The notes: generated from the letters alone by a model not told the origin. DNA of 64,000 nt from an uncultured Methanosarcinales archaeon (GCA_964392465.1 CAYMPC010000002.1:14993-78992), one strand, 5' to 3'; positions 25,207-47,600 are shown, counted from the first letter of the stretch. Numbers and translations are program-made.

Positions 25207-25797
25207 GTGACTGGAAATAAATTAGAAAAAGAGATTATAGGTATTTTTAATAGGGATATTTCTTCATTTTTAAGCATAAACCAAATATCAAAAAGATTAC
25301 ATAAGGCTTATCCCTATATAAATTCCAAGGTAAATAGCCTTATAAATGAAGGAGTTCTGACTAAATTCAATATAGGAAGAAGCTATCAATGCTCAATTAA
25401 TTTAAATAGCGAGAGAGCAGTAGCACTATTAACACTAAATGAAGTAGAAAAAAAAGAAAAATTATTTCTGAAAATAAAAAACATTAATAAGGCACTTGAA
25501 GATATAAAAAATATTAAAAATGAGTTTAAGATATATACTATTTTATTATACAATAACTCTCTTATTTTTGTTCTTGATTATCTTCATGACCAAGAAGCAA
25601 TAAAAAATTTGTTTCATTCAATTAAGCAATTTGATTTGATTTTTTTAGATAAATCTTCTTTCAAAAAATATCTTCTAGCTAATAAAAGTAAACTGCATGA
25701 ACATGCAATCCTTTACTCCTATGAAAAATATTTTGAGATAATGGGCGAAGTCAAAGATATGTCGCTTCTCAGCAATATAAATAATTACCTAAAATGA
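25207..25797 (+). CDS. winged-helix-like protein co-transcribed with the giant surface gene
   Basis: GTG start; LSINQISKRLHKAYPYINSKVNSLINEGVL wHTH-like; 4-nt overlap with 25794. Confidence 0.5.
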   Translation: MTGNKLEKEIIGIFNRDISSFLSINQISKRLHKAYPYINSKVNSLINEGVLTKFNIGRSYQCSINLNSERAVALLTLNEVEKKEKLFLKIKNINKALEDIKNIKNEFKIYTILLYNNSLIFVLDYLHDQEAIKNLFHSIKQFDLIFLDKSSFKKYLLANKSKLHEHAILYSYEKYFEIMGEVKDMSLLSNINNYLK

Positions 25798-28700
25798 ATC
25801 AAACAATCAAAAAAAGAATAACAGGAATCTTTTCGATACTTTTATTACTCATTATATTTGGAGTTTCTCTTTTCATTATTTATGCTTCAGATACAGAGTC
25901 TGCTTATATTTCTTTAAATAAAAAACAACTCTTTTTAGAAGAAATTTTAGAAGTTTCCTTAACTTTTCCAACCTTAGATAATATAACTGTCGATTTATTT
26001 ACGCCGACTTCAGTTTATAGGTATCCTTATCCTTCTTCTACTTTTAGATATAAAGTTAATGATATAGGGACATATAGAATAAACGTTTATAACAACAGAG
26101 TCCTTGTCGCTTCTGAAACTTTTTATGTTATAGAAGACCCAATTATAGATAATGATACAGGGGGATTTGATGAATTAGGGAAAGAAGATATAATCGACTT
26201 TTTTAGTTTATCTAAACCTAGTTATAACTTGGGAGAAGAAGTAATAATTATCTTTAATGAAAATCATTTTAGTAAATCTTTCAAACTTTCAATAAATTCA
26301 GAAAATCAAAACCTTAATTATATGAATGATTTAACTAACCCTACTAAATTTATTCCAAGGAAAAGAGGAGAATATGAAGTATTGGTTTATGATGAGGGAG
26401 CATTATTAGAAAATGAAACTTTTTATGTTTTGGATATAACAAAACCAAATAACCAAACTAGTCAAGAGGAACCTTTAGTATTAAATAATACAAATAATAT
26501 TTCAGCTAATAATGATAAAGAAATAAAAAATATATCAGCAGAAACCAATCAGTTAAATGAGTATACTGATTCAACTGTTTTTAATCTATTTTCTCCAGAA
26601 GGAATAAATTTTCAGATTAAAAACAGCAAAGGCTATTACTTATATACAAACCTTATATTAAACAGCGTAGAAACTGGAATTAAAAATCTTAAGCTGACAA
26701 CCCTCTCTTATCTTAATCTTTCAAAAGGAAAGTATAATGTTGAAGTATATCCTGAGCTTGCGGGAATTAAAACAATAACATTTAAAGAATTAAATTATCA
26801 AGGAGAATTTGAGCTTGGTCTTGAAGAATTGTCAGGCGTAAAAGTAGGAAAACAAGTTCCAAAAAAAGCTTATGCAATAGATCCCTCCAAACTTGAATTC
26901 AGCACAGGAAGTCTAGAAGTCGAGGCAAAAGGAGATATCTTATTCAAATGCAAAGAATGGAATTTTACAGAGCAAAAGTGCTATGGTGAATGGGAACTAA
27001 TAAGAACAATAACGCCAGGAGAGATATATGCATTAGAAATCAATAGTGCAGATCCAGCATATGCTGAAGTGGGGTTAGCATCTATAAATACAGAAAAATC
27101 ATTATATTATCCAGGAGAAACAGCAAAACTAACAATTGTTGCTCTTGATAATGAAGGGTATCTTGTTTCAAATGCATATGTTGCATTGGAAATAAAAGAT
27201 CCTTTGGGTAATTCAACATTCTTGACAACTTTAGAAGGAAATATTACTGAAATGGAAAGAGGAATCTATGAAGCATATTATAACATAAATGAGATAGAGG
27301 GAAACTATACTCTTTTTGTTTCTGTTATTGGAAATAATGTTAATAACACAATGTATTCTTATTTTTCTGTTCTTGATTATTATGAATTTGACATTTTAAG
27401 AAATACTCCAGTAACAACAGACCCATGGCAATCGCCTTTTATAACCCAAATAAATATTCTTGATTTGATAGATAACAAATCTTACTATAACTTTACAGAA
27501 ATATTGCCTTCTTCTTTTACCATAACAAATGGAAGTTATTCTGAAATTATTCAGCAAGAAAATTATACTTTGCTCAAATGGTATAACTTGAGCAATAGAT
27601 CTTATATTGAATATACTGCGCAGCCACCTCTAATTACACCTGAACTTTATACATTAAGGTCTTTTATTGAGTACAATGGAAGTGTATTTACTGAAGCGAG
27701 ACCGTGGTATCTAGCAGTTGATCCTATTATCTATTCACAAGTATGTGCAGGGCAGGATAATGCAAATGGCCAAGATACCTATTCAGCTACAGGATGTGAT
27801 GGATCCTATCCAGGCGCATGTGGAGCAGGAGGGGATTTATTATCATGTGATGATGATCAATCTGAAATACATACAGCTAGCAACAATGATAGATGGGCAG
27901 GCGTTAGAATCAATTCATATAATTCTTCTATGAATGACTGCCTAAGCATAACAAAGGTTGAGCTTTGTTATGAATGGTGGAGAACAGTTGGCTATGATGT
28001 TGCAAGAATTGCAGTTGATAGGGATGATTGGGCAAGCCCGACAACAATATCTTCTACAGTTCCAGGGACAACAGCAAATCCAGGAGTAACTTGTATTGAA
28101 ATCACTTCTTCTGAAGCTTGGACCTGCTCAAACTTTGACGGTACAGGAACAGCAGCACAGGCAGTTGCGCAACTCCAAAGGGATGGTACATCTACTTCTC
28201 CTCCGACAGCACGAACAGTATATATAGACTTATTATACTTTAATCTTACTTATCAGGGAGACAATAGCCCAAATGTAACCTTAAATACACCTGCAGCATA
28301 TTATTACAACAATACAAACAATCCTGCAAATATTACTTTTAATTGTTCTATCAAAGATGACATCAGATCACAAAATATCTCTCTTTATATTACAAATTCT
28401 GCTAATACAAGTTTTTCATATAATCAATCATGTGATATAACAACACAAAATGGAAGCTGCGTATGGTCCTTGCTTCTTTCAAATGGAGAATATAGATGGA
28501 ATTGTTTAGGTTATGATAACAGATCACAATCTGACTGGGGCGATGCAAACAGGAGTATAGTTGTGGCAGCAGCAGGTGTAGATGATTTTCCGACAGTCTC
28601 TCTTACTTCTCCTGTTGATTATTTTAATTCAACAAGCACAACAGTACAGCTAACTTGCCTTGCTGAGGACACAACAGATTTGTATAACATAAGTTTATAT

Positions 28701-31700
28701 ACAAATATAACCGGAAGTTTTGATTTAACTGATTATATAACTCTTGATGGAGGGCCAAATACATCTTACTTATCAGTATTTACTCTCTCTAGTATTCCCA
28801 ATGGAACAACTTTTATTTGGAATTGTTTGGTATATGATAATAGTACATTAGGACAATTTGCATGGGCTTCAGCTAATAGAACAGTAAGTATAAAAGAAAA
28901 TCCAATTCCTTTAGTATATCTTTTCTCTCCAGAAGATGAAACAACACAAACAGAGACAACAATTAATTTCAATTGCTCTGCAACAGATGATGAAGATATA
29001 AGTAGTCTAGCATTATATAGCAATAGAACAGGAAGCTTTGGGCTTGAGCAGGTAGTTACATTTACAGGAAATTCTGATACAAATGTTAATTATATTTTTA
29101 CGCAGAGTGGATTTTCAGATACTAAAGGATATGTGTGGAATTGTAAAGCAATAGATAATGAATCTAATGAAGTCTTTTATTATACTAATTATAGTTTTAA
29201 TGTTGTTCTTGGGGCGCCAAATGTAACCTTAAATACACCTGCAGACGAATCATACGATTTAGATGGAAATGTTGCATTAGATTGTTCAGCAGTTGATGAT
29301 CAGGATATTGTATCTATCAGCTTGTATCATGATTTATCAGGAACAATGGCATTAAATCAGACAGTTTATTTTCCAGGAACTTCAGATACAAGTGCAACAG
29401 TATTATTTAATTTGACAGGCCTTTCTTATGGAACTAGATTTAAATGGACATGCAGTGCAGAAGACAACAGCTCTTTAGTTTCTTATGCAGCAGAAAACAG
29501 ATCTCTTAAAATAGTGAACCTATATAATCTTTTTGCTGAAAAAGGAGAAGGAACATGGACTTCTCCTTCAAATGCAGCGGGAAAGCCTGATGAAGTTACT
29601 GCAAATGAGTTGCTTAATACAGAATATATTCTTAGAGTATACAATTTTTCAGGGGTTCCAACACAAGGGACTTTGCTTGAAACATATTTCAGCCTTTCAT
29701 GGTATACTGCTTCCACAGGTGGAAATGATCTTTTAAGATTATCCTATTCTACTACAAATTCAACTTATTATAACTTAACAGGAATAATATATGACAAAGA
29801 TACTGCCAAATATGCAAACAAGGTTTCTTCTTTAACAAACCAATCTTATCAAATAACAGGTACATTGACAACAGCAGATTTATCTTCTTTATATTTAAGA
29901 GTAGAAGGTGATCAAGTAACAAGTCCAGATTATAATACAGCCTATATTGATTCCATCTTTTTGTCTATCATGTTTGATTATTTGCCTTCACCTTATGCAA
30001 TAACAAAAACACCTTCAGCAGTTTATCAAAATACTTATGTTGATTTTTATTCAAACTGGACAGATGACTTTTATTTAGGATGTTATATTTTTAGTATTAA
30101 TCAGACAGGCGTATGGCAGAATTCTTCATGCATTCCATTCTTACCAGGAGCATGGGATGAAAGAGCAAATTATTCAATGCAGATTACAGCATTGCCAGGA
30201 ACAAATGTGCAATGGAGATTCTATGCAAATGATTCAAGAAGCCAGTGGAACAGCACAACAATACAGTCTTTTGTTGTGGTGGATCCAAATGATATTATAA
30301 AACCAACAATATCAAATGAGCAAGTGCAGCCCTTAACAAATTCATCAGGAAGCATATTTAATATTAGCGCTATTATCACAGATAATTATCAAGTTGATAG
30401 GGCATATGTAGAGTTAACAAACCCAAACGGACAAACAACAAATTATTCAATGTCTAGTAATGGAGATTTATATTATTACTATTATCAAGGATGGATTGGC
30501 GGAAATTATTCTTTCAGGATAATTGCTTTTGATAGTGTTAATAATAGCAATTATTCAAGTACTTATCCTATATTTAATGTTACCCCGGTTATTACGACAA
30601 ACTATATTTATTATGAAAGAGGAGATATTGTTCCAATAATAGGGAAAGGTTATTCTTCATTAAATAATGTAACTTTGAATATATTTAGAGCAAATGGAAC
30701 ATTAATGTCAGGATATCCTATAAATATTTCAAGCAATTTAACAGGTGGTTTTTTAACTTCTTGGCTAATTCCAAGTTCTTTAGCTGAAAAACTTGATAAT
30801 TATACAATTGAAGGTAATGATACTTACAGAAACTATTTAAAAAATTCAACAGAGATTGTTGTTGTAGTAAAATCAGATGATAGCAATAAATATGATAATA
30901 ACTATCCAACTGGAACAAGTGTATTAACACAATTAAATCAATCCGATGATATAACAACAACAATAGTCTCAAGAGGAACTGTAGCATATATAGATTTAAT
31001 TTATCAGGATTTGATTTTATATGGATATACATTAGATGATTTAATATTATATGTTGAACATGAGGACTATGATACAACAAGCGATCCTCTTGTTGTTCAG
31101 TATTATGATGGAACAACATACCAAACAGCGACTTGTGGAAATATTCCCTTTAGTTCAACTAATCTCCTAGGAGCATGTAACCTTACTCCTGATTTGGCAG
31201 CCATACCTGATAAAAATGATATTAGGATAAGATTGACAGATAATAATGCAGGAGTTTCTGGGAGTGATTTTTCTAAAATAGATATAGCTTACTTAGATAT
31301 TGAATTCAGTATTTCAAATACACTTTCTGTTGATATACTTGAACCTACAAATGAATTAACCTTAGTTGATTATACAGATTCAGTTTACAATAAAGCGTAT
31401 GGAGGGAGTACAGCAGATATAGTAACTAACACTCAGATGATGGGAACAGAATCATCTGATTATACTAAGTTGGAATCAAGTGATAATACAAGATGGCAGT
31501 CAACTGCAACAACAAGCGGCCATCATGTTTACCAAAGCTTTTACATGTATACAAACATCCCTGAATCAGACATTACAAGCATAGATGTGACATGGGAAGG
31601 ATATATGACAAAAAACGGAGTAAATGCAGAAGACATAAGGATTTTTGCTTGGGATTATACAGCAGGCGAATATGTTGATTTAAATGGAGAGGTAGCAATA

Positions 31701-34700
31701 ACAGGATCTACAGTTGATCAGACACTTGCTTTTACTTTGCCTGGAATAGTGGATGATTATATAAACAGCACAGGATATTTAAATATTTTAGTACAGAGCG
31801 CAACAGACCTTCAGGGAGCGCCTCAAGTTAGACTTGACTCATTTACAGACTATATTAAACTAGATATATATTCAATTAAAACTATTTCTGGCTATCAGGA
31901 TATAAACATTAGCGCAGTAGATGGCGATGGTGTTCAAAGCTGTACTATTAATTTCATAAATTCAAGCAACTTTAAGTATAATGATATTTATACAAATAAA
32001 CTTTCTGATTTCTTTTTTTACAATTTAACAGATACTTCTGATTATTCAGATGGCATATACAACCTTACTGCAAATTGTACAGATGGCACAGAAATAAAAT
32101 ATGACTCTGTTTTAGTTAGAATCTACAATGTTGCTCCCTTAGTTGAATTGATGTATCCTTATGAGGGATTGAATTTTACAATAAACAATATTAATTTTAC
32201 ATGGAATGCAAGCCAGGAAACAGGAAATCCAACATGTAACCTTTACATAGATAATAAATTAAATGTTTCAGGGATAGTATCAACAAATAAACAAAACACA
32301 ACCCAAATAGTATATAACCTACCAGATGGCAATCATAACTGGTCAGTTTCTTGTACAAATCTTGCAGGAGTCGTAGGATATTCTGAAATGAGGAATTTTA
32401 CAGTAGATACTTTAGCGCCAGTTATAACTTTAAATTATCCTATAGAGAGCCAGAATATAAGCACACCTAATATAACTTTTAACTATACTCCTATTGATAC
32501 AAACATTTTGAACTGTTCTATTTATATTAACGGAATCTACAATAATTCAAACACTTCTGTAATACCAAACAGACAAACCTCATTTTACGTTACTAATCTG
32601 TTAGCAGGCAAATACAACTGGACAGTATATTGTACAGATAGATATAGTCAGACAGGGCAAAGTACTGTAAATAATTTTACAATTGATTTAGATAATCCAA
32701 GAATTATATTGACACTTCCAATACCAGGCCAATTATTTTTAGGAGGCTTAGTGCAATTTAATTATACTGCCTATGATGATATAGACCTTTATTTATCATG
32801 TAATATTATGGTAAACAATTTTAATGAGTTTACAGGATTATCATCTCCAAATGCTACACCTGTTGTTCAAAGTAAAGAAATAAATTCAGGATTAAAATAT
32901 TGGAATGTTACATGTACAGATGATTCAGGAAGACAGAACACAAGTGAAACATGGAACTTTACTGTTAGCGGACCTCCTACAGTTACGCCTATCTATCCAG
33001 CTAATATGACTTCTTTGAATGAAGAAAACATAACTTTTATCTATTTTGCAGATGACACAGATGGAATAAAAAATTGTTCTTTATACTTAAATAATCAATG
33101 GAATCAGACAAATGTTACTATCTACACAGGAGAATACAATAATTTTACCATAAATACTATGGCTGAGACTTATTATAACTGGTCTATGCAATGTTATGAT
33201 AATTTGTCTGTAAGTACAACCTCTGGATTATATAAATTCACTTTAGATAGAACCCCCCCAATAGTCTATATGTATGCTCCTTATGAAGGAAGCTTTTATG
33301 AAGATGGAGATTTAACTTTTAATTTTAGTGTAATAGATAACTTAGACTCTTCTTTGACATGTACAATATTTATAGATGATATAGCAAGAACAGCATCAAA
33401 CACAGACTTTGCAGCACAAAATGGAACGATACAAACAAGAATAGAAATAGATATTCCTGGAGGAGATCATTATTGGTATGCAGCCTGTACAGATGATTCA
33501 GGCCTTAGCTATTATGCAGATGCTGTTAATTTTCAAATAGGAGGATTACCAACAGTAACACCTATCTCACCAGGAGACAACACATATCACATTGGAAATG
33601 TTAGTTTTGTTTATTTTGCTTATGATAGTGATAATATACAAGAATGTTCTCTTTACATAAATGGTGAATATAATAGGACAAATACAACAATCTTCAACAA
33701 TGACTATAACAATTTCAGTTTATATAATCTAGAAGAACAATATTTAAACTGGTCTGTAAATTGCACAGACACCTTAGGATTATCAACAATGTCTTTAGTA
33801 TATTGGCTTACTATAGATAATACGCCTCCTATAGTAACTCTTGTCTCTCCAAATGGAACAAGTTCAACAAGCACAACACAGATTTTCAATTTTTCAATAA
33901 TTGAAAACACAATGAGCAGCTTGACATGTGATATTTTTGTTAATGGTACAAATGTAGATCCAGGATTTACTGCAACAAATGGATCAAACACAAGAACAGT
34001 TCCAGGATTAAACTATGGCACAAGTTTCTGGAATGTTACATGTACAGATGGAGCATTGCTTTTAGGAGTAAGTCAAACATATAATTTTACAATTACAGAA
34101 ACACCAATTATAACTCTTTTAAATCCACCAGATGATTCGGTTGATATAGACGGAAATGTTATTTTCAGATTTCAAGTAGATAATAATAATATCTTAAATT
34201 GTAGTCTTTATCTCAATGGTCAACTAAATAATTCTATTTATCCTCCTGATATTATTCCTTATGGTGAATCTATTATACAAGTAAATGGTTTGCAAGAGCA
34301 ACTTCTTAACTGGACAGTTGGATGCATAAACGATGATTATATAGAAGCAAATGCGACAAACGGTCCCTGGAGATTGCATGTCGACTGGAATTCACCTAAT
34401 GTCAGTTTAAATAATCCTGTTAATTCTGCAAATATTAGTCTTAGCACAATAACATTTAATTTTACTGCTTTTGATAATGTAGATGATGTTTTATTATGTA
34501 ATTTAACAATAAATGGAACTATAAACCAGACAAACATATCCTCTCAGAATGGGCAACCAACAACAACAACAGTAACAGGATTTGGTCCTGGAATATATTT
34601 CTGGAATGTAACGTGTACAGATGGTTATTTTGCAAATACGTCAGAAACATATTACTTTAATGTTAGTGCTATTCCTACAATTGAACTTGTTTCTCCTGAA

Positions 34701-38739: not shown

Positions 38740-40959
38740 ATGAAAAAAGAGGAAAAAAAAAGAGTTATGGAAAATAGACAAATAAAAAAGAAAGTAGTAT
38801 TGTCTTTTTTATTGTATATTCTGCTCTTATTGTTTATAGATAAGTGTTATGCCCAAGAATGCAATAATAATAACACACCAGTTATAAAATATTTTTCAAA
38901 ATTTGAACTAAATGAAGGTGAGCCTTTTGAATATAAGTTTGATATACTAAATCAGTTGACAAATGAATTGGGAGAAATAAGCTTTTCATTAATACCTATA
39001 AATGCAACACCAGCGGCTATAAAAAATATAAGTATAGACAAAATATCAGGACTATTAAAATTCAAACCAGCAAATGAAGAAAAAGGAATCCAGACTTTTT
39101 TTGTTATTGCTACAACTTCTCAAGGATGTTATGATATTAAAAAAATAGAATTAATAATTTATGATAAGCCCAAAATATTAAATATCTCTCCTTCAAAAAG
39201 TTATATTGAAGTTGATGAGACAGACTATTTGAGATTTAGTATAAATGCTACTACTTCCTTACCTAATAACAACTTATTAATTGAATGGTATCATAACAAT
39301 AAGAAAGTAAAAACATCATCTAACTTTTTTACTTTATTCACAAATTTTTCAGATAGCGGAAAGCATTATATTGAAGTTGTCGTATCTGATTTAAGAGGTC
39401 TTAATTCGTCTTTTGAATGGGAGATAAATATAAAAAACATAAACAGGCCACCTTATCTAAAATATAACTTCCCAGATTTTGTTCTCACAAACGAAACAAA
39501 AGGAGAGCTATTTAATATTAACAATTATATATATGACCCTGATTTAGATAAATTAAAGTTTGAAGCTTTTTTTGTTGAAGAATTTAATCCAGAAATAATA
39601 AAAAACCAATCTAAAGTATTTGATATCTTCATAGATAAATTTGGTTCTTTTTACATCTCTCCCCAAATTAATATTTATCTTAAAGAGTATGTTAGGATAA
39701 ATGCATCAGATTCTGAGAATTATAGTATTTTAAGCAATCCGTTTATGTTGAAGCTTGCTAGCAGCGAAAATATAACTGTTTTGTTTATAAATTATTCAAA
39801 AAAAGAGGAATGTAAAGTTGAAATTCAATGTAGAGAATGGTCTTTATGTTTGCCTACAAATATAAGAACAAGGGAATGTTTTGATATAAATGATTGTAAT
39901 GGAGAAAACAAATCACTTTTGGAATCAGAAAAATGTGAATATAATGCTACGTGTTTTGATAAGATAAAAAACCAAAACGAAGAAGGAGTTGATTGTGGAG
40001 GGGTATGTGATCCTTGTCCTACATGTGAGGATGAGATTTTAAATCAGGGTGAAGAAGGAGTTGATTGTGGAGGTCCATGTTCTCCTTGTCCAAGTTGTAA
40101 TGATGGCATTTTAAACCAAGATGAGACAGATATTGATTGTGGAGGAAAATGTTCTTTGTGTGATTCTGGGAAAAGTTGTCTTCTTCATAAAGATTGTATA
40201 AGCTTTAATTGCATTAACAGTATTTGTGCTCTTGCAACCTGCGATGATTCTAAAAAAAATCAGGGAGAAGAAAAAGTTGATTGCGGAGGTCCATGTTCTC
40301 TTTGTCCAACATGTAATGACAAAATTCAAAATCAAGGAGAAGAAGGAGTTGATTGCGGAGGTCCATGTAAACCCTGCCCAAGCTGTTTTGATAAAATAAA
40401 AAACCAGGGAGAAACGTTTGTTGATTGCGGAGGTCCATGTAAACAGTGTGGAATCATAAAATTTTTTGGAGATAATAAATTGTATTTGTTTTTGTCAGGA
40501 TTATTTATTATTTTTATTGTCGCAATTGTCTTTGTAAAGTTAGTGTATTTTAGGAATGAGCTAATTTCAATCTCAAATTTATCAAAATTCTTCAAGTTTT
40601 TGCCTGCAACACTCCCTGATAATTATCAAGAGATAATTATAAAGACTATTAATCAATTAAATGAAACAAAACAAAAGGCATATAACTCAGAAGACAAACA
40701 AAAGATAGTTACAGATCTAAATAATATAATCAATTCTTTTTTTAGTCAGTTATTTGAGATTGAAGGCACATTTTCAAAAGGCAGTTTAAAAGCAACAATT
40801 AGGCAGAAAATAAAAAACCCTTTTTTATTGGAGCTTTTTATGAAAGTTTATACTTTCTCACTAAATGTTAATCCAGAAACACCACTTTTCAAAATTGATT
40901 TTATCCAAAAAGTAGATGAGCTGATAAAAATAATAAATCTAATAAGAGAAACTATATGA
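38740..40959 (+). CDS. type-I membrane protein with seven tandem 'NQGEEGVDCGGPCxPCPxC' cysteine-rich repeats
   Basis: Signal peptide, Ig-like region, tandem repeats from nt 39950-40450, C-terminal TM (FLSGLFIIFIVAIVFVKLVYF), cytoplasmic tail. Confidence 0.75.
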   Translation: MKKEEKKRVMENRQIKKKVVLSFLLYILLLLFIDKCYAQECNNNNTPVIKYFSKFELNEGEPFEYKFDILNQLTNELGEISFSLIPINATPAAIKNISIDKISGLLKFKPANEEKGIQTFFVIATTSQGCYDIKKIELIIYDKPKILNISPSKSYIEVDETDYLRFSINATTSLPNNNLLIEWYHNNKKVKTSSNFFTLFTNFSDSGKHYIEVVVSDLRGLNSSFEWEINIKNINRPPYLKYNFPDFVLTNETKGELFNINNYIYDPDLDKLKFEAFFVEEFNPEIIKNQSKVFDIFIDKFGSFYISPQINIYLKEYVRINASDSENYSILSNPFMLKLASSENITVLFINYSKKEECKVEIQCREWSLCLPTNIRTRECFDINDCNGENKSLLESEKCEYNATCFDKIKNQNEEGVDCGGVCDPCPTCEDEILNQGEEGVDCGGPCSPCPSCNDGILNQDETDIDCGGKCSLCDSGKSCLLHKDCISFNCINSICALATCDDSKKNQGEEKVDCGGPCSLCPTCNDKIQNQGEEGVDCGGPCKPCPSCFDKIKNQGETFVDCGGPCKQCGIIKFFGDNKLYLFLSGLFIIFIVAIVFVKLVYFRNELISISNLSKFFKFLPATLPDNYQEIIIKTINQLNETKQKAYNSEDKQKIVTDLNNIINSFFSQLFEIEGTFSKGSLKATIRQKIKNPFLLELFMKVYTFSLNVNPETPLFKIDFIQKVDELIKIINLIRETI
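39950..40450 (+). repeat. intragenic tandem DNA repeat (units of about 75-100 bp) encoding the DCGGPC modules
   Basis: Repeated aatcagggtgaagaaggagttgattgtggaggtccatg-like units. These produce the spurious minus-strand 'MDLRNQ' ORFs in the track. Confidence 0.7.
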
Positions 40960-43900
40960 GCAATAACTTTATTCACAAAAATAGGAAAATATATACAAAA
41001 GTTCTTCTAATTAATTTTATTTTGCTTTTATCTTTTATTATTGTAAAAGGAGAGTTTCTCTACTTGGAAAAAACAGAATTTACAATTGGAGAAACAGTTT
41101 CTATAATTACACAAGGGCCGCTTGAGACAGCATCTCTTGAGATATTGTCTCCTTCTAATATCTATAGATATCTAGGTGTGCCTCAGACAGAATTGAAGTT
41201 TGTTCCAAAGGAAATTGGCAATTATGAAATAAGACTTAGTGATCAAAATGGAATTGTTCTTCAGTCACTTTTTTTTACTGTTTCCGATATAACTTCTGCA
41301 ACTGACTTAAATTTTACCTTAACTGAAAAAGAACAGCCAACTATTTTAATAAAAAACAGCTTTAATCAAGAATTGATTACAGATTATTTGATATATAATC
41401 AATCAGAGGAGATTATTTTTTCATCAGAAACATTGGGAGCATTTGAAACAACAGAAACACTTTCTTCTTTGATATTTTCTCAGCAAAAATATGATCTTGA
41501 ATTGATTATGAATAGAACAAGTGTTAAAAATATGATTTTTTACAATATTACTTTTGATCAAACCTTTGAATTAGGGTTTGAAGAAATGCCTAATGAATCT
41601 GTTTCTAATTATTTTTTGAGCAATGAAAGAATAAGGCGCATTGATAAAGTATATGCAATTGATCCTACTAAGATAAAATTTGATTCTGCTGTAATTACTT
41701 TTATTGCAAGTGGTAATGAGCTCTATAAATGCAAAGACTATAATTTTACCAATAGGACTTGCTACGGAGAGCATGTAAAAATAATGGACATGATTCCCGG
41801 TATGGAATATAATTTTACCTTAACTCCAGAAGACCCTCAATATACAGAGACAACAAGCAATACAGCAGGATGTAGTTGTACAAATACATGCACAACAGGA
41901 ACAGGAGGAGCCTCAAGTTGCACAGCATCATGCAATGATTATTGTGACATCAATTTTACAATACCTTCAGGAGCTATTTCAGGATGGCTTGAGAAAGTTA
42001 GTTATAGTGTTACAGTTACTTTGTCAGGAACAGGAACTTCTGTTAGTGCCCTTCACGAAGGTAGGCTTGATAAAGATGAAATAATTAATAGTGGAAATGA
42101 TGTACAAATAGGAACATCGACAATTTCTACTAAAGCAACCAATAATATTGTTTTTGAAAATATTAATATGCCAGACCCTTATGTCTCAACTTCTTTTGAT
42201 GAGACAAACTGCACTTGGTCAAATGGATATTGTACCTGGAAGCCATTTTTATCTTCTTCTTATACATGTACAGGAAACAGAAGAACTTGCATAACTACAA
42301 TTTCTTTAACTTTGATTAATTACACTTGGAACTATACAGTAGATACTATTAATCCAACAATATCCTTTGGCAATCCTGCCAATAATAGCTTTATCAATAC
42401 AAATTCAAATCTTTTTTTCTACACTCCAAACGATAATCTCGATTTAAAAAATTGTTCTATTTATCTAAATGGAGTTTTAAACCAAACAAACACTACCTTG
42501 ACAAAAGGGGCTGAGACAACATTGTATGTAACAAATATGAACGATGGATATTATTCATGGTATATCTTATGTTATGACACCAATCTTAATTCAAACACAA
42601 GCGGAACAAGATATCTTACAATAGATACAATTGCGCCTTCTGTCTCTTATATATGGCCAACTCCATATAATCAATCTTATTTGCAGGTTAATTATTTAGT
42701 TGTTAATGTAAGTCATATAGAATCAAATCCTGATAAACTAATCTTTAACTGGAATAAAAGCATTACAACTCAACCTTACACAGGTAGCTTTACTAATATA
42801 AGTAAAATAGGTTTATCTGAGGGTTTATACTATTATAATTTAAGTATTAATGATAGCGCCTCTAATACAAATGCAACAGGCACTTATTGGGTTGTTATAG
42901 ATACAATAAATCCGCAAGTCTCTTTAAATGAGCCATTAAATAATAATTGGATAAATTATAACACAAGTATTAGATTTAATTTTACGCCGACAGACACTAA
43001 TATCCAAAATTGCACATTATATGGGAATTTTACAGGGACAGGATTATTTGAAAAAAATGAAACAAATCTCAATCCAGTCTCTGGAATTAAAAACAATTTC
43101 AACACTATAAATATCAAGGACGGAATTTATGTATGGAATGTGTTGTGCTATGATAAATCCGGAAGGAGCGCATGGGCAATTTCAAATTATACATTAAAAG
43201 TTGATGCAAGCATTCCACTAGTAACTTTATTAGAGCCATATAACAATACTTTATGGAATGAATCAAGTACTGTGATGTTCAACTATACTGTAACAGATAG
43301 TTCAAATATAATTAATAATTGTACCTTGGAAGTTAAATCTAATATTACAACTTTGTATTTTGAAGATACAAGTATAGAAACAGTAATAAAACAAAATTTT
43401 ACAGTTGAATTGTCTAACAACAAATTCAATTGGACAATATTATGCACAGATGTAGCTGGAAACACAAACAGTATCTATCCAGGGTATTATAATCTTACTG
43501 TTGCAGTTGGAGAAGACACAGTTGGACCAAATATAGTTTTAGAGAGCCCACAAAATTCTAATTGGACAAATATAAATAACATTACACTTATTTATACACC
43601 TACAGACAATTCTCTTATAAATAATTGCTCTCTCTATGTAAATGATGTCTATAACCAAACAGACATAGAAGTAGAAAATGAAGTTTCTAATTTCTTTGTA
43701 TTGAATAAGACAAAAGAAGGTATATATTCTTGGTATATCAATTGCACTGATAATTCAACAAATAAGAACAACAGAAAATCACAAGACACATGGACTTTTA
43801 TAGTTGATCAAAGCAATCCATCACTATATCTTGTATCCCCTATTAATTTTTTTAATACAACAAATTTGAATATTAATTTTACCTGGCTTTTAATTGACTT

Positions 43901-46900
43901 ATTTTCTCAAAATATGTACTGCGATTTAATTGTTAACAATTCATTAGAGGCATCTTTAAAATTAACACAAAATAACACTTATACAAATCAGACAGCTTAC
44001 TTGACAAACGATGGAGTATATTATTGGAATGTTACATGCAGAGATGAAGCATACAATTATAATGTTTCACAGACAAGAGCTTTTACAATAGATAGTACAA
44101 TCCCTTATATTGATCTTATTCTACCTGAAAACGGAAATACAAGTACAACAGGAGATATTACTTTTTATCATATCCCTAGTGATAATACAAGCGGCTTAAA
44201 TAATTGTATTTTATATCTTAATGGACTTGAAGAAAATTCTTCTTTTGTATTACTTAATAATCAGCAAAACAATTTTACAAAAATAAATTTGGTTTCAGGA
44301 AATTATAATTGGCAGGTTAACTGCACAGATAAACTTGGTAATAAGGGTTATTCAGAAACAAGGACTTTTTCTGTTGATAATATAGCACCAAAAACAAACA
44401 GTTATCAAGCAATACCTACAACAGCAGATCTCTCCCAAAGCGTAAATATCTTTGTAAATGTTACAGATAATTCTGGATTAAACATAGTTATAGCACAGAT
44501 AATGAAACCTAGTGGTGCAACTACTAATTACACAATGACATTATATTCAACAGATATATATAATTTAACTTATATAGATACAACAGAAAGAGGTACTTAT
44601 ACAGTTAATATTTTCTCTAACGATACTTATGGAAATTTGAATATCTCAAAAAATTATTATTTTTATGTAAGCGCAGGAATCTTTGTCAACAAAATATACT
44701 TTGATAGGGGAGAAACAGTATATATAACAGGAGGGGGTTTTGATCCAGGAGATAATATAACACTAAATATAACAGATAAATATGGGATAACTGCACTTAA
44801 TTCTCCAATAAAAGATATTATTGTGAACTCAACAGGCGGATTTGCTACAACATGGAATATAAGTACAGCAAATGGCCAAGCAACAGGAAACTATACAATT
44901 TTAGGTTATGATGTTAATTCTCCAGGACAAGCAGGAACAAATTATGCTTATCTAGTTAGAAGGTTGACAGCAGCAAATCTTGATGATAAAAATACAGCAG
45001 GATTAGTTGTTAATTCTTTAGTAAATGAATCAGATACACAATATTCAACAATAGTTCCTGGAGCAGGAATTGATCTTTTAAATTTCACTTGGGTTAATAT
45101 TGTTCCAGATAATCAAGTTATTTCTGATGTAAGATTTTACATGCAGCATTATGAGACAGCACAATATAATGTATATCTTGAGTGGTATAATTCTTCAAAT
45201 GGAGTATGGACAAGGGTCTGTACTATTCTGACGACGGCAACCGAAAAAATTGATACATGCGATTTAAATGATGAAGTTAAGACTTCTTCTGAAGCAAACT
45301 ATCTTCAATTAAGATTAACTGATAATAATGGTCTTGGAGCATCAACAGGAAACTGGGTTAATTTGAATTTTGCTTATTTAGAAGTAACCTTTACAACCCT
45401 TACTCTTGATAAAGAGAGTTATGTTCAGGGAGAAAAAGTTAATATTTCAGGAAGCAGGTGGCCGGTAAACACAGAACTTACATTAAATATTAGTAAAACA
45501 GATAGCACAACAGATCAACAAACAACAACAACAGATGCAAACGGAAATTTTAATTCAATCTATAATATCAGTTATGGTGCTCCTCTTGGCAGATTCAACA
45601 TAACTGTTTTTGTAACAACAAACCCAGATGATACAGAGGAGACCTATTTCTATGTAGTAAAAAGAAATTCTTCAATTGCAACAGATAAGTTATATTACGG
45701 CAGAGCTGAAACAGTAAATATTACAGGAAGGGGATTTTCTCCTGATGCCAACATTACTATTTTGATTTATGACGCGCAAAATTTTTTGAGATTGAATACA
45801 AGCGTTATTTCTGATAATATACCTAATGGAACCATGGAATACTTATGGTCAATTCCTTATGCTTATAGCGGCTATTATGGAAAACACACTATAATAGTAA
45901 ACGATAAATTATACCCTAACTTAAACGGAACTGCAAATATTACGGTTGGTATACTAACAACAAATTCTACAAAATTAGAAAACTCGATTTTATCTGATGA
46001 AACCTCAAAAGTAAATCAATCAGACAATATAACTGCCAGTCTTGCTGTATATAATGGTGTTGAAGATTATATGAGTTTTAATTTTTTGGACGCAAGCACT
46101 TCAAATTATGTACTCTCGAATTTCACATTCTATATTCAACATAATGAAGTACAAAACTATGATCTTGTTTTAGAATGGTGGAATGATACATCTTGGGTGG
46201 ATGTATGTAGGATAACCTACTCTATAGATAAAAAGATTGATTCTTGCGATTTATTGCCTCTTATTGAAAGAACCCCAAGAACAGCAAATCTCACTTTAAA
46301 GATTACAGACAACCAGAGTAATTTAGGTGTTTCAGGGAATATATGGACATATATAGATTATGTTTATTTAGTGTCCTGGGCAGATCCAGATTTTATAAAC
46401 CCTAAAGTAAATATATACTCTCCTTCAATTGATTCGATATATAATTATAGCCAAAGTGTTCCAATAGTAGTAAATATTTCTGAAAATGTAGAAATAGATA
46501 CAGTTTATGCCTTATTAGAGTGGTCTTCTGGCTCTGAAATTATTCTTTTGACTCCTTTAAATATCAATTACTTCGGAGAGGGAATATATGAAGGATTTTT
46601 TACTAATACAAAACAGCTGGACTATTTTAATGTGACAATATTTGCTAATGATACAACAGGGAATTATAATGACACAGAAAAAACAAATTTCTCAATACAA
46701 TCCCCAGATTTGACATCAAATTCAAGTTACATTTTCTTCTCCAATGAGAACCCTGTTGAAAATGAAAACATTACATTAAATATTACACTCTTTAATAGAG
46801 GTAATTATGTAGCAGGGCAATTTACAGTTAGGTTTTTTGAGGGAGATTATACTTTTGAAAAACAAATAGGAGAAGATATAATAATTTCAAGCCTGAATTC

Positions 46901-47600
46901 TGGTGAAAATATAACTATAGAAACAACATGGCTTTCAAAAGTTGGCACACATATTATACAAATAGTTATTGATCCACCTTTGGAAACAAATGGTAGTGTT
47001 TGGGAGATAAATGAATCAAATAATGTAGTAGAAGGATACATAAATATACCTAGCTGGAATATTTTTTACGGTAACACTTCTGGTTATGTCAAGTTAGAAA
47101 AAGATACAAGTGAAAAGAAATTTTCATGGAATATAACAACAGGAGGCAATATGTATGTTGTAGAGACAGGTACTGAGGTAGATTGGAGTAATCTTCAGGC
47201 ATTGGGGAGAGATATTTTTAATCAGGTTTCTTATAATGATTTCTTTGAGGCCGATGTTGCGCTTCAAATGGAAAATAATACAGATTCTTTAAACAGGACA
47301 TATGTGATTAATAACTTGCCTTTATATATTAATGATATCATAATATATACTAATCAAATAAATAATGTCCCTTTCATCAATTCCACAAATACATCCAACT
47401 TTATGACCGGAATCTTATGGGATAAATCAGAGGGTAACACAGAATATAATGGGACACAAGACTTGATATTTATTACGCAAGTTAATAAGGAGCAGCAAGG
47501 TAAATATGGAATACAAGATTATGAAATCAGAGTGCCTTATACCTTAGACACTTATAAAATGGGCAGCGGCACAGTGACTTTTTACACAGAGATTATTTAA
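40956..47600 (+). CDS. giant surface glycoprotein (2214 aa), paralog of the 25794 protein
   Basis: Homologous N-terminus (IYRY.. / YAIDP.K..F....KCK..NFT...CYGE) and C-terminus (MTGILWDKS.GN..YNG.QDL). W-N-C modules, and one CARDB-like segment (SPDLTSNSSYIFFSNENPVENENITLNITLFNRGNYVAGQFTVRFFEG). Confidence 0.85.
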   Translation: MSNNFIHKNRKIYTKVLLINFILLLSFIIVKGEFLYLEKTEFTIGETVSIITQGPLETASLEILSPSNIYRYLGVPQTELKFVPKEIGNYEIRLSDQNGIVLQSLFFTVSDITSATDLNFTLTEKEQPTILIKNSFNQELITDYLIYNQSEEIIFSSETLGAFETTETLSSLIFSQQKYDLELIMNRTSVKNMIFYNITFDQTFELGFEEMPNESVSNYFLSNERIRRIDKVYAIDPTKIKFDSAVITFIASGNELYKCKDYNFTNRTCYGEHVKIMDMIPGMEYNFTLTPEDPQYTETTSNTAGCSCTNTCTTGTGGASSCTASCNDYCDINFTIPSGAISGWLEKVSYSVTVTLSGTGTSVSALHEGRLDKDEIINSGNDVQIGTSTISTKATNNIVFENINMPDPYVSTSFDETNCTWSNGYCTWKPFLSSSYTCTGNRRTCITTISLTLINYTWNYTVDTINPTISFGNPANNSFINTNSNLFFYTPNDNLDLKNCSIYLNGVLNQTNTTLTKGAETTLYVTNMNDGYYSWYILCYDTNLNSNTSGTRYLTIDTIAPSVSYIWPTPYNQSYLQVNYLVVNVSHIESNPDKLIFNWNKSITTQPYTGSFTNISKIGLSEGLYYYNLSINDSASNTNATGTYWVVIDTINPQVSLNEPLNNNWINYNTSIRFNFTPTDTNIQNCTLYGNFTGTGLFEKNETNLNPVSGIKNNFNTINIKDGIYVWNVLCYDKSGRSAWAISNYTLKVDASIPLVTLLEPYNNTLWNESSTVMFNYTVTDSSNIINNCTLEVKSNITTLYFEDTSIETVIKQNFTVELSNNKFNWTILCTDVAGNTNSIYPGYYNLTVAVGEDTVGPNIVLESPQNSNWTNINNITLIYTPTDNSLINNCSLYVNDVYNQTDIEVENEVSNFFVLNKTKEGIYSWYINCTDNSTNKNNRKSQDTWTFIVDQSNPSLYLVSPINFFNTTNLNINFTWLLIDLFSQNMYCDLIVNNSLEASLKLTQNNTYTNQTAYLTNDGVYYWNVTCRDEAYNYNVSQTRAFTIDSTIPYIDLILPENGNTSTTGDITFYHIPSDNTSGLNNCILYLNGLEENSSFVLLNNQQNNFTKINLVSGNYNWQVNCTDKLGNKGYSETRTFSVDNIAPKTNSYQAIPTTADLSQSVNIFVNVTDNSGLNIVIAQIMKPSGATTNYTMTLYSTDIYNLTYIDTTERGTYTVNIFSNDTYGNLNISKNYYFYVSAGIFVNKIYFDRGETVYITGGGFDPGDNITLNITDKYGITALNSPIKDIIVNSTGGFATTWNISTANGQATGNYTILGYDVNSPGQAGTNYAYLVRRLTAANLDDKNTAGLVVNSLVNESDTQYSTIVPGAGIDLLNFTWVNIVPDNQVISDVRFYMQHYETAQYNVYLEWYNSSNGVWTRVCTILTTATEKIDTCDLNDEVKTSSEANYLQLRLTDNNGLGASTGNWVNLNFAYLEVTFTTLTLDKESYVQGEKVNISGSRWPVNTELTLNISKTDSTTDQQTTTTDANGNFNSIYNISYGAPLGRFNITVFVTTNPDDTEETYFYVVKRNSSIATDKLYYGRAETVNITGRGFSPDANITILIYDAQNFLRLNTSVISDNIPNGTMEYLWSIPYAYSGYYGKHTIIVNDKLYPNLNGTANITVGILTTNSTKLENSILSDETSKVNQSDNITASLAVYNGVEDYMSFNFLDASTSNYVLSNFTFYIQHNEVQNYDLVLEWWNDTSWVDVCRITYSIDKKIDSCDLLPLIERTPRTANLTLKITDNQSNLGVSGNIWTYIDYVYLVSWADPDFINPKVNIYSPSIDSIYNYSQSVPIVVNISENVEIDTVYALLEWSSGSEIILLTPLNINYFGEGIYEGFFTNTKQLDYFNVTIFANDTTGNYNDTEKTNFSIQSPDLTSNSSYIFFSNENPVENENITLNITLFNRGNYVAGQFTVRFFEGDYTFEKQIGEDIIISSLNSGENITIETTWLSKVGTHIIQIVIDPPLETNGSVWEINESNNVVEGYINIPSWNIFYGNTSGYVKLEKDTSEKKFSWNITTGGNMYVVETGTEVDWSNLQALGRDIFNQVSYNDFFEADVALQMENNTDSLNRTYVINNLPLYINDIIIYTNQINNVPFINSTNTSNFMTGILWDKSEGNTEYNGTQDLIFITQVNKEQQGKYGIQDYEIRVPYTLDTYKMGSGTVTFYTEII

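What the first reader, a model, noticed from the sequence alone, without database searches (positions are those of the whole stretch)
25794..47600. Two giant paralogous surface proteins built from 'W-N-C' Ig-like modules with CARDB domains and shared terminal domains
The 4314-aa and 2214-aa proteins share a homologous N-terminal domain (IYRY motif, YAIDP.K..F, KCK..NFT...CYGE) and a homologous C-terminal domain (E.DIALKMENNTDS.N.T..LNN..., MTGILWDKS.GN..YNG.QDL). Between these lie many modules of about 95 aa, each ending in an x-(Y/F/H)-(Y/N)-W-N-(V/C)-x-C-x-D signature preceded by a cysteine about 55 residues upstream. These are probably disulfide-stabilised Ig-like folds. CARDB-like domains (PDL.L....I.F.N..P.E.E...I.A.I.N.G...A.N) occur twice in the larger protein and once in the smaller. 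Sequon density implies heavy N-glycosylation. Proteins of this size are a notable share of coding capacity in a small genome and are prime candidates for host-attachment adhesins.
Basis: seen in the sequence. Interest (0 to 1): 0.6.

Follow-up and report, generated by a model that had tools for sequence, protein, structure and literature searches.

The report
Paired giant surface proteins, Woesearchaeota
Two intact giant genes (4314 and 2214 aa) of a tiny DPANN archaeon encode sugar-coated, rod-like surface proteins made of cysteine-paired Ig-like beads; their shared C-terminal domain has no known fold and recurs in three small secreted proteins and a membrane ATPase nearby, which suggests one conserved, undescribed cell-surface apparatus.

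Summary
ORF A (25794-38738, 4314 aa) and ORF B (40956-47600, 2214 aa) are intact. They share an N-terminal domain (E 5e-27) and a C-terminal domain (46% identity, E 3e-74). They hold 23 and 8 Ig-like modules of about 95 aa, and 2 and 1 CARDB domains. N-x-S/T sequons are 2-2.5 times commoner than composition predicts.

Correction: the cysteine lies about 56 residues upstream only in the 'W-N-C' modules (three of the four). In the 22 'W-N-V-x-C' modules the gap is 37-45.

The genes are not an artefact: orthologues at 54-59% identity are collinear, and no long DNA repeats exist.

The pair belongs to a large, unannotated Woesearchaeota/Nanoarchaeota family. In 932 modules from other genomes the two cysteines are both present (817) or both absent (115), never single.

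The C-terminal domain models confidently (pLDDT 91.6) but matches no solved structure. It is homologous to three small secreted proteins downstream. Those in turn match the ectodomain of a HerA/FtsK-type membrane ATPase upstream.

I infer a conserved surface apparatus in which this domain docks the giants. A host-adhesion role is plausible but untested.

The parts
25794..38738 (+). ORF A, giant surface protein, 4314 aa
   Evidence: Intact ORF. An orthologue on metagenome contig L001 is 59% identical and collinear over 3028 aa.
25818..25886 (+). N-terminal hydrophobic segment of A (aa 9-31, KKR then ITGIFSILLLLIIFGVSLFIIYA|SD): Sec signal peptide or signal anchor
   Evidence: Read directly from the sequence. 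Cleavage after IYA is inferred, not predicted by a tool.
25896..27068 (+). N-terminal domain of A: two filamin-like Ig copies plus a domain with YAIDPSK and KCKEWNF..C.GEW
   Evidence: BLASTP against B gives E 5e-27. The domain is present in both members of pairs in the 32 ORFs from other loci aligned in A7. The only hit is a weak filamin match for the first ~90 aa.
28266..29525 (+). Four type I 'W-N-C' Ig-like modules (aa 825-1244); three have a Cys-Cys gap of 56, the first carries four cysteines
   Evidence: HMM E 4e-12 to 2e-22; cysteine positions.
29526..32132 (+). Central non-module region of A (aa 1245-2113), beta-rich, partly homologous to B aa 1140-1805
   Evidence: BLASTP 28-29% identity, E 1e-29 and 1e-19. 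No Pfam family matched.
32133..35816 (+). Array of 13 type II 'W-N-V-x-C' modules (aa 2114-3341) in an a-b super-repeat
   Evidence: HMM E 5e-16 to 3e-33; Cys gaps 38-42; repeat spacing 555-573 nt.
35811..36125 (+). CARDB domain 1 of A
   Evidence: Pfam PF07705, 38.7 bits against a cut-off of 22.7.
36147..37838 (+). Six further modules (aa 3452-4015): three with the Cys pair, three without cysteine
37833..38159 (+). CARDB domain 2 of A
   Evidence: Pfam PF07705, 56.7 bits.
38178..38735 (+). C-terminal domain of A (186 aa), the family-defining domain with no detectable known fold
38740..40959 (+). ORF C, 739 aa: signal, Ig-like region, repeated NQGEEGVDCGGPCxPCPxC units, TM segment, helical cytoplasmic tail; sits between the two giants
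   Evidence: Conserved between the pair in 11 loci at 36-50% identity. Its start and stop abut or overlap A and B.
40956..47600 (+). ORF B, giant surface protein, 2214 aa
   Evidence: Intact ORF. Full-length orthologues in L037 (54%) and L054 (45%).
41046..41855 (+). N-terminal domain of B
42351..44681 (+). Eight modules of B (aa 466-1242): six with the Cys pair
46704..47030 (+). CARDB domain of B
   Evidence: Pfam PF07705, 48.4 bits.
47049..47597 (+). C-terminal domain of B
   Evidence: Part of the 334-aa stretch that is 46% identical to the C-terminus of A; 50% identical over the domain itself in the alignment.
50177..50980 (+). Small secreted paralogue 1 (267 aa) of the C-terminal domain family, ending YYFYLDLE
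   Evidence: Small-protein HMM E 2.9e-85; profile-profile match to the giants' C-domain.
51063..51803 (+). Small secreted paralogue 2 (246 aa)
   Evidence: hhalign A3 against A5: probability 98.9%, E 1.7e-17, 163 columns.
53472..54200 (+). Small secreted paralogue 3 (242 aa)
54273..54776 (+). Divergent signal peptidase I-like protein (GPSMQPS motif) next to the small paralogues
   Evidence: Sub-threshold hits: Pfam Peptidase_S26 E 1e-3; TIGR02227 E 2.3e-5, and also the SipW and archaeal SPase I models.
16596..20633 (+). 1345-aa membrane ATPase: TM, ectodomain, CarboxypepD_reg/PEGA, TM, HerA/FtsK-type ATPase, TPR
   Evidence: Pfam DUF87 45.9 bits against a cut-off of 23.2, plus TPR. Same architecture next to a giant in L047.
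16728..17375 (+). Ectodomain of the ATPase (aa 45-260), homologous to the small secreted paralogues
   Evidence: hhalign against A5: probability 96.8%, E 3e-10, 173 columns. The L047 homologue hits the same HMM at 1e-10.
25207..25797 (+). 196-aa protein whose stop overlaps the start of A; conserved directly upstream of the first giant in other genomes
   Evidence: 7 loci, 22-40% identity.

Best explanation
Shown. A and B are an old, conserved pair of exported proteins of a Woesearchaeota-type (DPANN) archaeon. Each has four parts:
- an N-terminal Sec-type hydrophobic leader;
- a conserved N-terminal domain;
- a variable-length stalk of bacterial-Ig-type beta-sandwich modules, most carrying an obligate cysteine pair, followed by a CARDB domain;
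- a conserved 186-aa C-terminal domain at the very end of the chain.
N-x-S/T sequons are strongly enriched. The C-terminal domain belongs to a family that also includes three small secreted proteins encoded downstream. Through those, it is linked to the extracellular domain of a HerA/FtsK-type membrane ATPase encoded upstream in the same-strand cluster.

Inferred. The proteins are exported N-terminus first, N-glycosylated and disulfide-stabilised. They form semi-rigid rods, roughly 130-150 nm for A and about 70 nm for B at about 3.5 nm per domain. The C-terminal domain, the last part to leave the membrane, acts as a homotypic docking module. It joins the giants to a base made of the small paralogues and the ATPase ectodomain. 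The conserved N-terminal domain is then held far from the cell as the contact-making tip.

This logic resembles a FimH-type tip adhesin, which has an adhesin part plus a domain homologous to the fibre subunits. It also resembles a split version of the nanohaloarchaeal SPEARE proteins, in which an Ig-like giant is fused to a VirB4-like ATPase. The likely role is contact with a host or partner cell.
For: Organism and export.
- Archaeal, low-GC context: XPD, diphthine synthase, FtsZ. All relatives are Woesearchaeota/Nanoarchaeota MAGs.
- Leader sequences are visible. The sequon excess is shared with other predicted exported proteins of the window.

Modules.
- Pfam Big_13 76.8 bits. PDB profile hits: BIg domain 9kvu 4e-8 and SiiE 1.9e-6.
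- Cysteine pair across 932 modules: both 817, neither 115, one alone 0.

Conserved ends, variable stalk.
- In L002, L004 and L005 the second protein is only 751-1056 aa and matches B only at its N-terminal domain and its C-terminal end. B orthologues in L037 and L054 are full length.
- Module counts in relatives range from 0 to 24.

C-terminal domain.
- It is always at the extreme C-terminus, in proteins of up to 6807 aa.
- Giants' C-domain against small paralogues: 98.9%, E 1.7e-17.
- ATPase ectodomain against small paralogues: 96.8%, E 3e-10. The same architecture occurs in L047 next to a giant.

Gene arrangement.
- Overlapping or abutting start and stop codons link o25207, A, C and B.
- The neighbourhood is conserved. 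Small paralogues follow the pair in 9 of 14 loci that have a complete pair and at least 3 kb downstream.

Analogue. SPEARE architecture as described in PMC10266531.
Against: - No multimer model and no experiment shows that C-domain family members bind each other.
- The direct profile comparison of the ATPase ectodomain with the giants' C-domain is weak (14%), so that link is transitive only.
- Small paralogues were not found within reach in 5 of 14 loci.
- The ATPase is seen near giants in only three other loci, because the fetched flanks are mostly filled by the giants themselves.
- The hydrophobic leader of A is 23 residues long, enough for a retained membrane anchor. That would reverse the polarity of the model.
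- Signal-peptide cleavage, glycosylation, disulfides, rod length and host binding are all inferred.
- No expression data are available.
Confidence: 0.5

Rival explanations
1. Reverse polarity. The N-terminal hydrophobic segment is an uncleaved membrane anchor. The stalk projects outwards, and the C-terminal domain is the distal ligand-binding tip. The small paralogues would be free or cell-bound versions of the same binding module.
For: - The hydrophobic segment of A is long (aa 9-31).
- There is no C-terminal TM segment or sorting signal.
- The C-domain is the best conserved part of the protein (46-69% identity), as expected for a functional head.
Against: - A membrane ATPase carrying the same domain family close to its first TM segment fits a membrane-proximal assembly role better than ligand binding.
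- Plausible -3/-1 signal peptidase sites follow both leaders (IYA|S in A, VKG|E in B), read.
- The N-terminal domain is also conserved across the family.
Confidence: 0.2
2. The C-terminal domain is mainly an export or sorting tag, comparable in logic to the C-terminal domain of type IX secretion cargo. It would be recognised by an ATPase-driven, locus-encoded secretion pathway. Giants and small proteins would simply be cargo of very different sizes.
For: - The domain is strictly at the extreme C-terminus, with a conserved terminal Y-x-E-(L/I)-x, in proteins from about 240 to 6807 aa.
- A HerA/FtsK-type ATPase and a KaiC-like ATPase lie in the same cluster.
Against: - The small proteins consist almost entirely of this domain, so they would be cargo-less tags.
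- The proteins already carry Sec-type leaders.
- There is no sequence or fold similarity to known sorting domains.
Confidence: 0.1
3. Structural envelope proteins (S-layer-like or sheath components) with no specific role in contacting another cell.
For: Glycosylated Ig-fold proteins are the usual S-layer building blocks in DPANN and other archaea (bioRxiv 10.1101/2023.10.27.564410). The small paralogues could form a lattice.
Against: - Chains of 2214-6807 aa with highly variable module number are typical of fibrillar adhesins, not of lattice-forming S-layer proteins.
- The proteins come as a pair with conserved ends and sit next to ATPases.
Confidence: 0.1
4. The giant ORFs are assembly artefacts or decaying pseudogenes.
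For: The orthologue on metagenome contig L001 is split by two frame changes near its last module.
Against: - Both window ORFs are uninterrupted.
- Module copies share only short DNA stretches, 60-78% identical apart from one 30-nt pair at 93%, and TRF finds no module-length array within A or B.
- Independent assemblies give collinear orthologues: 59% over 3028 aa and 54% over 2212 aa.
- More than 700 related clusters exist.
Confidence: 0.02

Closest known systems
SPEARE / giant membrane-anchored proteins of Nanohaloarchaeota (e.g. SVXNc_0300, 9409 aa; PMC10266531, PMC6642349)
   Same: Both are DPANN proteins with a Sec-type leader and a huge ectodomain of tandem ~100-aa Ig-like domains. Both are associated with a HerA/FtsK-superfamily (VirB4/TraG-like) ATPase and are proposed to mediate host contact.
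   Different: In SPEARE the Ig array, a TM segment and the ATPase are one polypeptide. Here A and B have no TM-ATPase part; the ATPase is a separate 1345-aa gene 5 kb upstream. The link to it is a shared extracellular domain family. There is no WD40/beta-propeller. Sequence homology to SPEARE was not tested because no sequences were at hand.
Bacterial fibrillar adhesins built of BIg domains (SiiE of Salmonella, MpIBP/RTX adhesins; Pfam Big_13)
   Same: The module profile matches Big_13 (76.8 bits), BIg domain 9kvu (4e-8) and SiiE (1.9e-6). Both have a long tandem array acting as an extender, with specialised end domains.
   Different: The organism is an archaeon. There are no RTX repeats and no type I secretion signal. 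The modules carry an obligate Cys pair absent from the aligned residues of the best-matching bacterial domain (9kvu). Sequon load is heavy. The terminal domains are unrelated.
Two-domain tip adhesins of donor-strand fibres (FimH of type 1 pili)
   Same: The logic is the same: a large adhesive part fused to a C-terminal domain homologous to small secreted subunits encoded in the same locus.
TasA/SipW fibres and archaeal bundling pili or threads
   Same: Small secreted beta-rich proteins with a conserved mature N-terminus, encoded next to a signal peptidase I-like gene.
   Different: There is no TasA/camelysin Pfam or NCBIfam hit and no structural match to any solved fibre subunit. The peptidase hit is below threshold.
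CARDB (cell adhesion related domain found in bacteria, PF07705)
   Same: Three clear CARDB domains. One always sits directly before the C-terminal domain, also in relatives.
   Different: CARDB is a generic beta-sandwich and explains only about 100 aa per copy.

Membership tests
Bacterial Ig-like domain, Big_13 / BIg type | Match to the Pfam PF19077 model above its gathering score | tested here: met
   A scores 76.8 bits and B 43.6 bits against a cut-off of 27.
Bacterial Ig-like domain, Big_13 / BIg type | Sequence homology to a solved BIg domain | tested here: met
   Profile of 31 modules: 9kvu_A E 4e-8 over 89 residues; SiiE 2yn3 E 1.9e-6.
Bacterial Ig-like domain, Big_13 / BIg type | Beta-sandwich fold of a single module, with the two cysteines within bonding distance | not tested
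The only evidence for pairing is perfect Cys co-occurrence, 817/0/115.
CARDB (PF07705) | Match above the gathering score | tested here: met
   38.7, 56.7 and 48.4 bits against a cut-off of 22.7.
SPEARE-type giant proteins of Nanohaloarchaeota | Sec leader plus a long tandem Ig-like ectodomain | tested here: met
SPEARE-type giant proteins of Nanohaloarchaeota | C-terminal TM segment and VirB4/TraG-like ATPase domain in the same polypeptide | tested here: not met
   Pfam finds no ATPase domain in A or B, and neither C-terminus carries a hydrophobic stretch. A HerA/FtsK-type ATPase is a separate gene at 16596-20633.
SPEARE-type giant proteins of Nanohaloarchaeota | Sequence homology to SPEARE proteins | not testable with these tools
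RTX / type I-secreted fibrillar adhesins | RTX nonapeptide repeats and a C-terminal T1SS signal | tested here: not met
   No RTX or haemolysin-type family among the Pfam hits. The C-terminus is a distinct globular domain.
TasA/camelysin-type fibre subunits (considered for the C-domain family) | Sequence match to TasA/Peptidase_M73 models | tested here: not met
   No such hit for the small paralogues or the C-domain in Pfam (E up to 1) or NCBIfam (E up to 0.01).
TasA/camelysin-type fibre subunits (considered for the C-domain family) | Jelly-roll fold similar to solved TasA or archaeal fibre subunits | tested here: not met
TasA/camelysin-type fibre subunits (considered for the C-domain family) | Dedicated SipW-type signal peptidase in the locus | tested here: inconclusive
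   o54273 hits S26/SPase I models only below threshold: Pfam 19.6 bits against 22.9, TIGR02227 24.3 against 47. It is conserved in only one other locus.
Type IX secretion C-terminal sorting domain | Match to the Por_Secre_tail/T9SS CTD models, and presence of T9SS machinery | tested here: not met
   No such Pfam or NCBIfam hit. The organism is an archaeon with a single membrane.
New family: 'CARDB + C-terminal domain' giants of Woesearchaeota/Nanoarchaeota (defined here) | A ~186-aa domain at the extreme C-terminus, preceded by CARDB, in an exported multi-Ig protein; usually two such genes in tandem | tested here: met
   253 stretches and 75 loci in GTDB genomes. A second C-domain ORF lies on the same strand in 30 loci, often directly following the first. 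761 clusters at E <= 1e-30, all of the 150 listed with the domain at the C-terminus.

The most novel reading that the evidence does not exclude
The cluster from about 16.6 to 54.8 kb encodes an undescribed archaeal cell-surface machine specific to Woesearchaeota/Nanoarchaeota. It would consist of:
- a HerA/FtsK-type membrane ATPase whose ectodomain nucleates an extracellular assembly of three small paralogous subunits with a new fold;
- two giant glycosylated Ig-rods, plugged into that assembly through the same domain.
Together they would form a host-contact or transfer organelle that is a split, non-covalent counterpart of the nanohaloarchaeal SPEARE proteins.
Probability: 0.2. Interest if true: 0.85.

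Novelty: new variant of a known kind. Interest (0 to 1): 0.6.

Why it matters
Woesearchaeota are abundant and uncultured, and are presumed to depend on other cells. How they attach to or exchange material with partners is unknown.

This locus offers a concrete, widely conserved candidate: several hundred protein clusters, with proteins of up to 6807 aa. The parts are clearly defined:
- a distal conserved N-domain;
- a length-variable stalk of Cys-paired modules;
- a C-terminal domain with no detectable known fold, shared with small secreted proteins and, through them, linked to an ATPase ectodomain.

The proposal is testable by multimer modelling, metaproteomics and cryo-ET. It also connects the Woesearchaeota system to the SPEARE giants of Nanohaloarchaeota. 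That would suggest a common design principle for DPANN host-contact devices: giant Ig rods coupled to a HerA/VirB4-type ATPase. Finally, it yields two unannotated domain families (the N-domain and the C-domain) that could be added to domain databases.

Tried and rejected
- The first AF2 run of the C-domain, with a 6-sequence alignment, failed (pLDDT 33.6). It succeeded only after a profile search supplied 26 fragments.
- The word-indexed protein search returned only short fragments annotated 'hypothetical protein'. It never returned the giants themselves and found nothing for the N-domain. The family became visible only through the DNA-level scan of GTDB genomes and the full HMMER scan.
- The TasA/SipW or donor-strand fibre idea was prompted by the small secreted paralogues and the GPSMQPS peptidase. 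No sequence or fold support was found, so it is kept only as an analogy.
- PDB sequence-profile searches for the C-domain, the small paralogues and the N-domain gave nothing beyond a weak filamin hit.
- BFVD (viral structures) gave no match. The afdb50 library was not available.
- Assembly artefact and pseudogene explanations are rejected.
- I tested whether first-of-pair and second-of-pair C-domains form two clean orthologous groups. The separation is slight: 46% and 42% identity within groups against 41% between.
- Five literature searches found no description of this family. The 'large murein-transglycosylase proteins' reported in Woesearchaeota and Pacearchaeota (PMC8204110) are a different family; no such domain is detected here.
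Full report
**1. What is in the sequence**

The window has about 30% GC. It carries archaeal housekeeping genes: XPD helicase, diphthine synthase, FtsZ and a tRNA-Gln.

From 13.5 kb to about 47.6 kb, and again from 48.6 to about 61 kb, the large ORFs lie on the + strand. ORF A (25794-38738, 4314 aa) and ORF B (40956-47600, 2214 aa) are uninterrupted. Together they fill 19.6 kb, or 31% of the window.

The stop of a 196-aa ORF (25207-25797) overlaps the start of A. A is followed after one base by ORF C (38740-40959, 739 aa), and the stop of C overlaps the start of B. The four genes therefore look like one translationally coupled unit.

**2. Check of the observation**

- Terminal domains. A and B share a C-terminal stretch of 334 aa at 46% identity (E 3e-74). 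They also share an N-terminal domain of about 300 aa at 28% identity (E 5e-27). A central non-repeat region is shared as well: A 1500-1850 matches two parts of B 1140-1805.
- Modules. An HMM built from the motif-bearing modules finds 23 modules in A and 8 in B at E < 1e-4.
- Domain families. Pfam gives Big_13 (76.8 bits) and CARDB twice in A and once in B, all above the curated cut-offs.
- Sequons. N-x-S/T sequons number 241 in A against 97 expected from shuffles (z 17.7), and 107 in B against 55 (z 8). A similar excess appears in other predicted exported proteins of the window but not in cytoplasmic ones.

Two corrections apply.

- There are two module types.
  - The four type I modules (A 825-1244) carry 'W-N-C'. 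Three of them have the partner cysteine 56 residues upstream; the first has four cysteines.
  - The 22 type II modules carry 'W-N-V-x-C', with the partner 37-45 residues upstream (mode 39).
  - Five modules have no cysteine.
- The long array is an a-b super-repeat of about 190 aa.

**3. Not an artefact**

- Module copies share only short DNA stretches, 60-78% identical apart from one 30-nt pair at 93%. The only module-sized tandem DNA repeats in the region are the 72-nt units inside ORF C.
- An independent metagenome contig (L001) carries an orthologue of A that is 59% identical and collinear over 3028 aa, with the same run of modules.
- B has full-length orthologues in L037 (54%) and L054 (45%).

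**4. The family**

A DNA-level scan of one genome per GTDB species with the C-terminal domain found 253 stretches. The best 75 loci are almost all Woesearchaeota or Nanoarchaeota MAGs; a few carry other labels. None is identical to the window (best 69%), so the source genome is not among those representatives.

In every locus the domain closes a very long ORF, and most run past the 10-kb flank (over 3500 aa). In 30 loci a second ORF with the same C-terminal domain lies on the same strand, often directly following or overlapping the first. The pair is old: identity of the two C-domains within a locus is 31-54%.

A full HMMER scan of 1.84 billion cluster representatives found 1956 clusters (761 at E <= 1e-30). 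In all 150 listed the match ends at the C-terminus, in proteins of up to 6807 aa.

The modules are found throughout the family. In 932 modules from other genomes the two cysteines are both present in 817, both absent in 115, and never single. That is strong evolutionary evidence for an obligate pair.

The N-terminal domain is present in both members of pairs. In the closest relatives (L002, L004, L005) the second protein is only 751-1056 aa and matches B only at its N-terminal domain and its C-terminal end. The two ends are therefore the conserved functional parts, and the Ig array is a variable extender.

**5. The terminal domains**

With a 28-sequence alignment, the C-terminal domain of A gives a confident AF2 model: pLDDT 91.6, pTM 0.86, about 13 strands and 4 short helices. 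The model has no neighbour among solved structures:
- Foldseek against PDB gives a best E of 0.24 and TM 0.14.
- BFVD gives none.

Sequence profiles find nothing in the PDB, Pfam or NCBIfam. The AlphaFold database library could not be searched, so 'new fold' remains provisional.

The first ~90 aa of the N-terminal domain are weakly filamin-like (E 2e-4). The rest, with two invariant cysteines in KCK..NF....C.G.W, matches nothing.

**6. The key extension**

Three small exported proteins downstream (50177-50980, 51063-51803, 53472-54200) end in YYFY(L/V)(E/D)(L/I). Apart from a leader and about 40 further residues, they consist of a domain homologous to the giants' C-terminal domain. hhalign between 106 C-domains and 45 small proteins gives 98.9% probability and E 1.7e-17 over 163 columns.

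Such small paralogues follow the pair in 9 of 14 loci that have a complete pair and at least 3 kb downstream. A divergent signal peptidase I-like gene lies next to them.

The 1345-aa protein at 16596-20633 has this order of parts: TM segment, ectodomain, CarboxypepD_reg/PEGA domain, second TM segment, HerA/FtsK-type ATPase (DUF87, 45.9 bits), TPR. Its ectodomain (aa 45-260) is homologous to the small paralogues (96.8%, E 3e-10, 173 columns). The same architecture occurs next to a giant in L047. The direct comparison of this ectodomain with the giants' C-domain is weak, so that link is transitive.

**7. Most likely mechanism**

*Shown.* The giants are exported, sequon-rich, Cys-paired Ig-module proteins with conserved ends. 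One domain family is shared by the giants' C-termini and three small secreted proteins, and through those is linked to a membrane ATPase's ectodomain. The neighbourhood is conserved.

*Inferred.*
- The leaders are cleaved. Both are followed by acceptable -3/-1 sites: IYA|S in A and VKG|E in B.
- The chains are N-glycosylated and disulfide-bonded, and form rods. With about 40 beta-sandwich domains in A and about 20 in B, at about 3.5 nm each, this gives roughly 140 and 70 nm. The per-domain figure is from my own knowledge of SiiE.
- The C-terminal domain docks the rods onto a membrane-proximal assembly made of the small paralogues and the ATPase ectodomain.
- The conserved N-terminal domain is then the distal contact tip.

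I put this at about 0.5. The general statement that these are extracellular fibrillar, adhesin-like proteins I put at about 0.85.

The rivals are reverse polarity (N-terminal anchor, C-domain as the tip), the C-domain as a sorting tag, an S-layer-like structural role, and artefact. They are listed with their tests in the rival explanations.

**8. Comparison with what is known**

- SPEARE proteins. The closest described system is the SPEARE-type giant proteins of Nanohaloarchaeota. They combine a Sec leader, about 75 Ig-like domains, a TM segment and a VirB4/TraG-like ATPase in one chain, with a second ATPase next door (PMC10266531; PMC6642349). The window's system has the same ingredients, but they are split over several genes and linked by a shared ectodomain family. 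It is not a member of that family, because the defining fused TM-ATPase is absent.
- Bacterial BIg adhesins. The modules are homologous to bacterial BIg domains of fibrillar adhesins such as SiiE. They differ by the cysteine pair and the sequon load.
- FimH. The 'giant adhesin plus subunit-like domain' logic recalls FimH, without any homology.
- Literature. Five literature searches found no description of this Woesearchaeota family. The large lytic-transglycosylase proteins noted in Woesearchaeota and Pacearchaeota (PMC8204110) are different. The DPANN 'dark matter' survey lists a secreted family (NEQ255) encoded next to S-layer-like Ig proteins (PMC6393860). Whether that family is related to the small paralogues could not be tested.

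**9. Verdict**

The added findings are a large conserved family, an obligate cysteine pair, a C-terminal domain with no detectable known fold, and its reuse in small secreted proteins that in turn match an ATPase ectodomain. Together they make this a new variant of a known kind, the giant Ig-repeat surface proteins of DPANN archaea. There is a moderate chance that it marks an undescribed surface apparatus.

Noticed in passing
window 38740-40959 (ORF C) and 59311-61206: ORF C has a run of about 24-aa Cys-rich units (NQGEEGVDCGGPCxPCPxC; 72-nt DNA repeats, 76-79% matches). A TM segment and a helical cytoplasmic tail follow. The same Cys-rich unit plus TM plus coiled-coil tail occurs in the 631-aa ORF at 59311-61206. 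No Pfam or NCBIfam family matches. ORF C is conserved between the two giants in 11 other loci.
   Followed up: partly
window 16596-20633: A 1345-aa membrane protein joins an ectodomain of the small-paralogue family, a CarboxypepD_reg/PEGA domain, a HerA/FtsK-type ATPase and C-terminal TPR repeats. The same architecture (1392 aa) lies next to a giant in L047.
   Followed up: partly
window 20635-21684 and 48615-49646: Two proteins of about 345 aa share a weak DUF5752-like C-terminal domain. One follows the ATPase gene and the other follows the giants. Relatives occur in about 27 loci.
   Followed up: no
window 23743-24792: A KaiC/RecA-type ATPase (Pfam KaiC 77 bits; PDB KaiC 3.6e-11) with a long acidic and lysine-rich N-terminal extension lies between the HerA ATPase genes and the giants. 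Weak relatives occur in 5 loci.
   Followed up: no
window 21707-22801: A 364-aa coiled-coil protein with no family is conserved upstream of the first giant in 8 loci at 37-48% identity.
   Followed up: no
L001 9817-10008 (JGI contig Ga0645780_15554): The orthologue of A is split into three ORFs (3935, 63 and 301 aa) by two frame changes inside its last module. This is either sequencing error or real decay in that population.
   Followed up: partly
loci L002, L013, L026/L069, L028, L033 and others: Several public MAGs that carry this Woesearchaeota-type locus are titled 'uncultured Methanosarcinales archaeon' or 'Euryarchaeota archaeon SM23-78'. These are probably mislabelled or mis-binned records.
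   Followed up: no
window 13508-16603: A 1031-aa sequon-rich exported protein with a MopE-type Cys motif plus PKD and CarboxypepD_reg domains starts the same-strand cluster. No relatives were found in the fetched loci.
   Followed up: no
window ~12.9-13.5 kb: GC skew changes sign (negative for 1-14 kb, positive afterwards). Gene orientation switches from mostly - to + at the 12865-13508 intergenic gap. This could be a replication origin or terminus, or simply coding-strand bias.
   Followed up: no
window 51766-52785 and 58617-59309: Two further sequon-rich proteins with N-terminal hydrophobic leaders (339 and 230 aa) match no family. The first is conserved among the small paralogues in 19 loci.
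   Followed up: no
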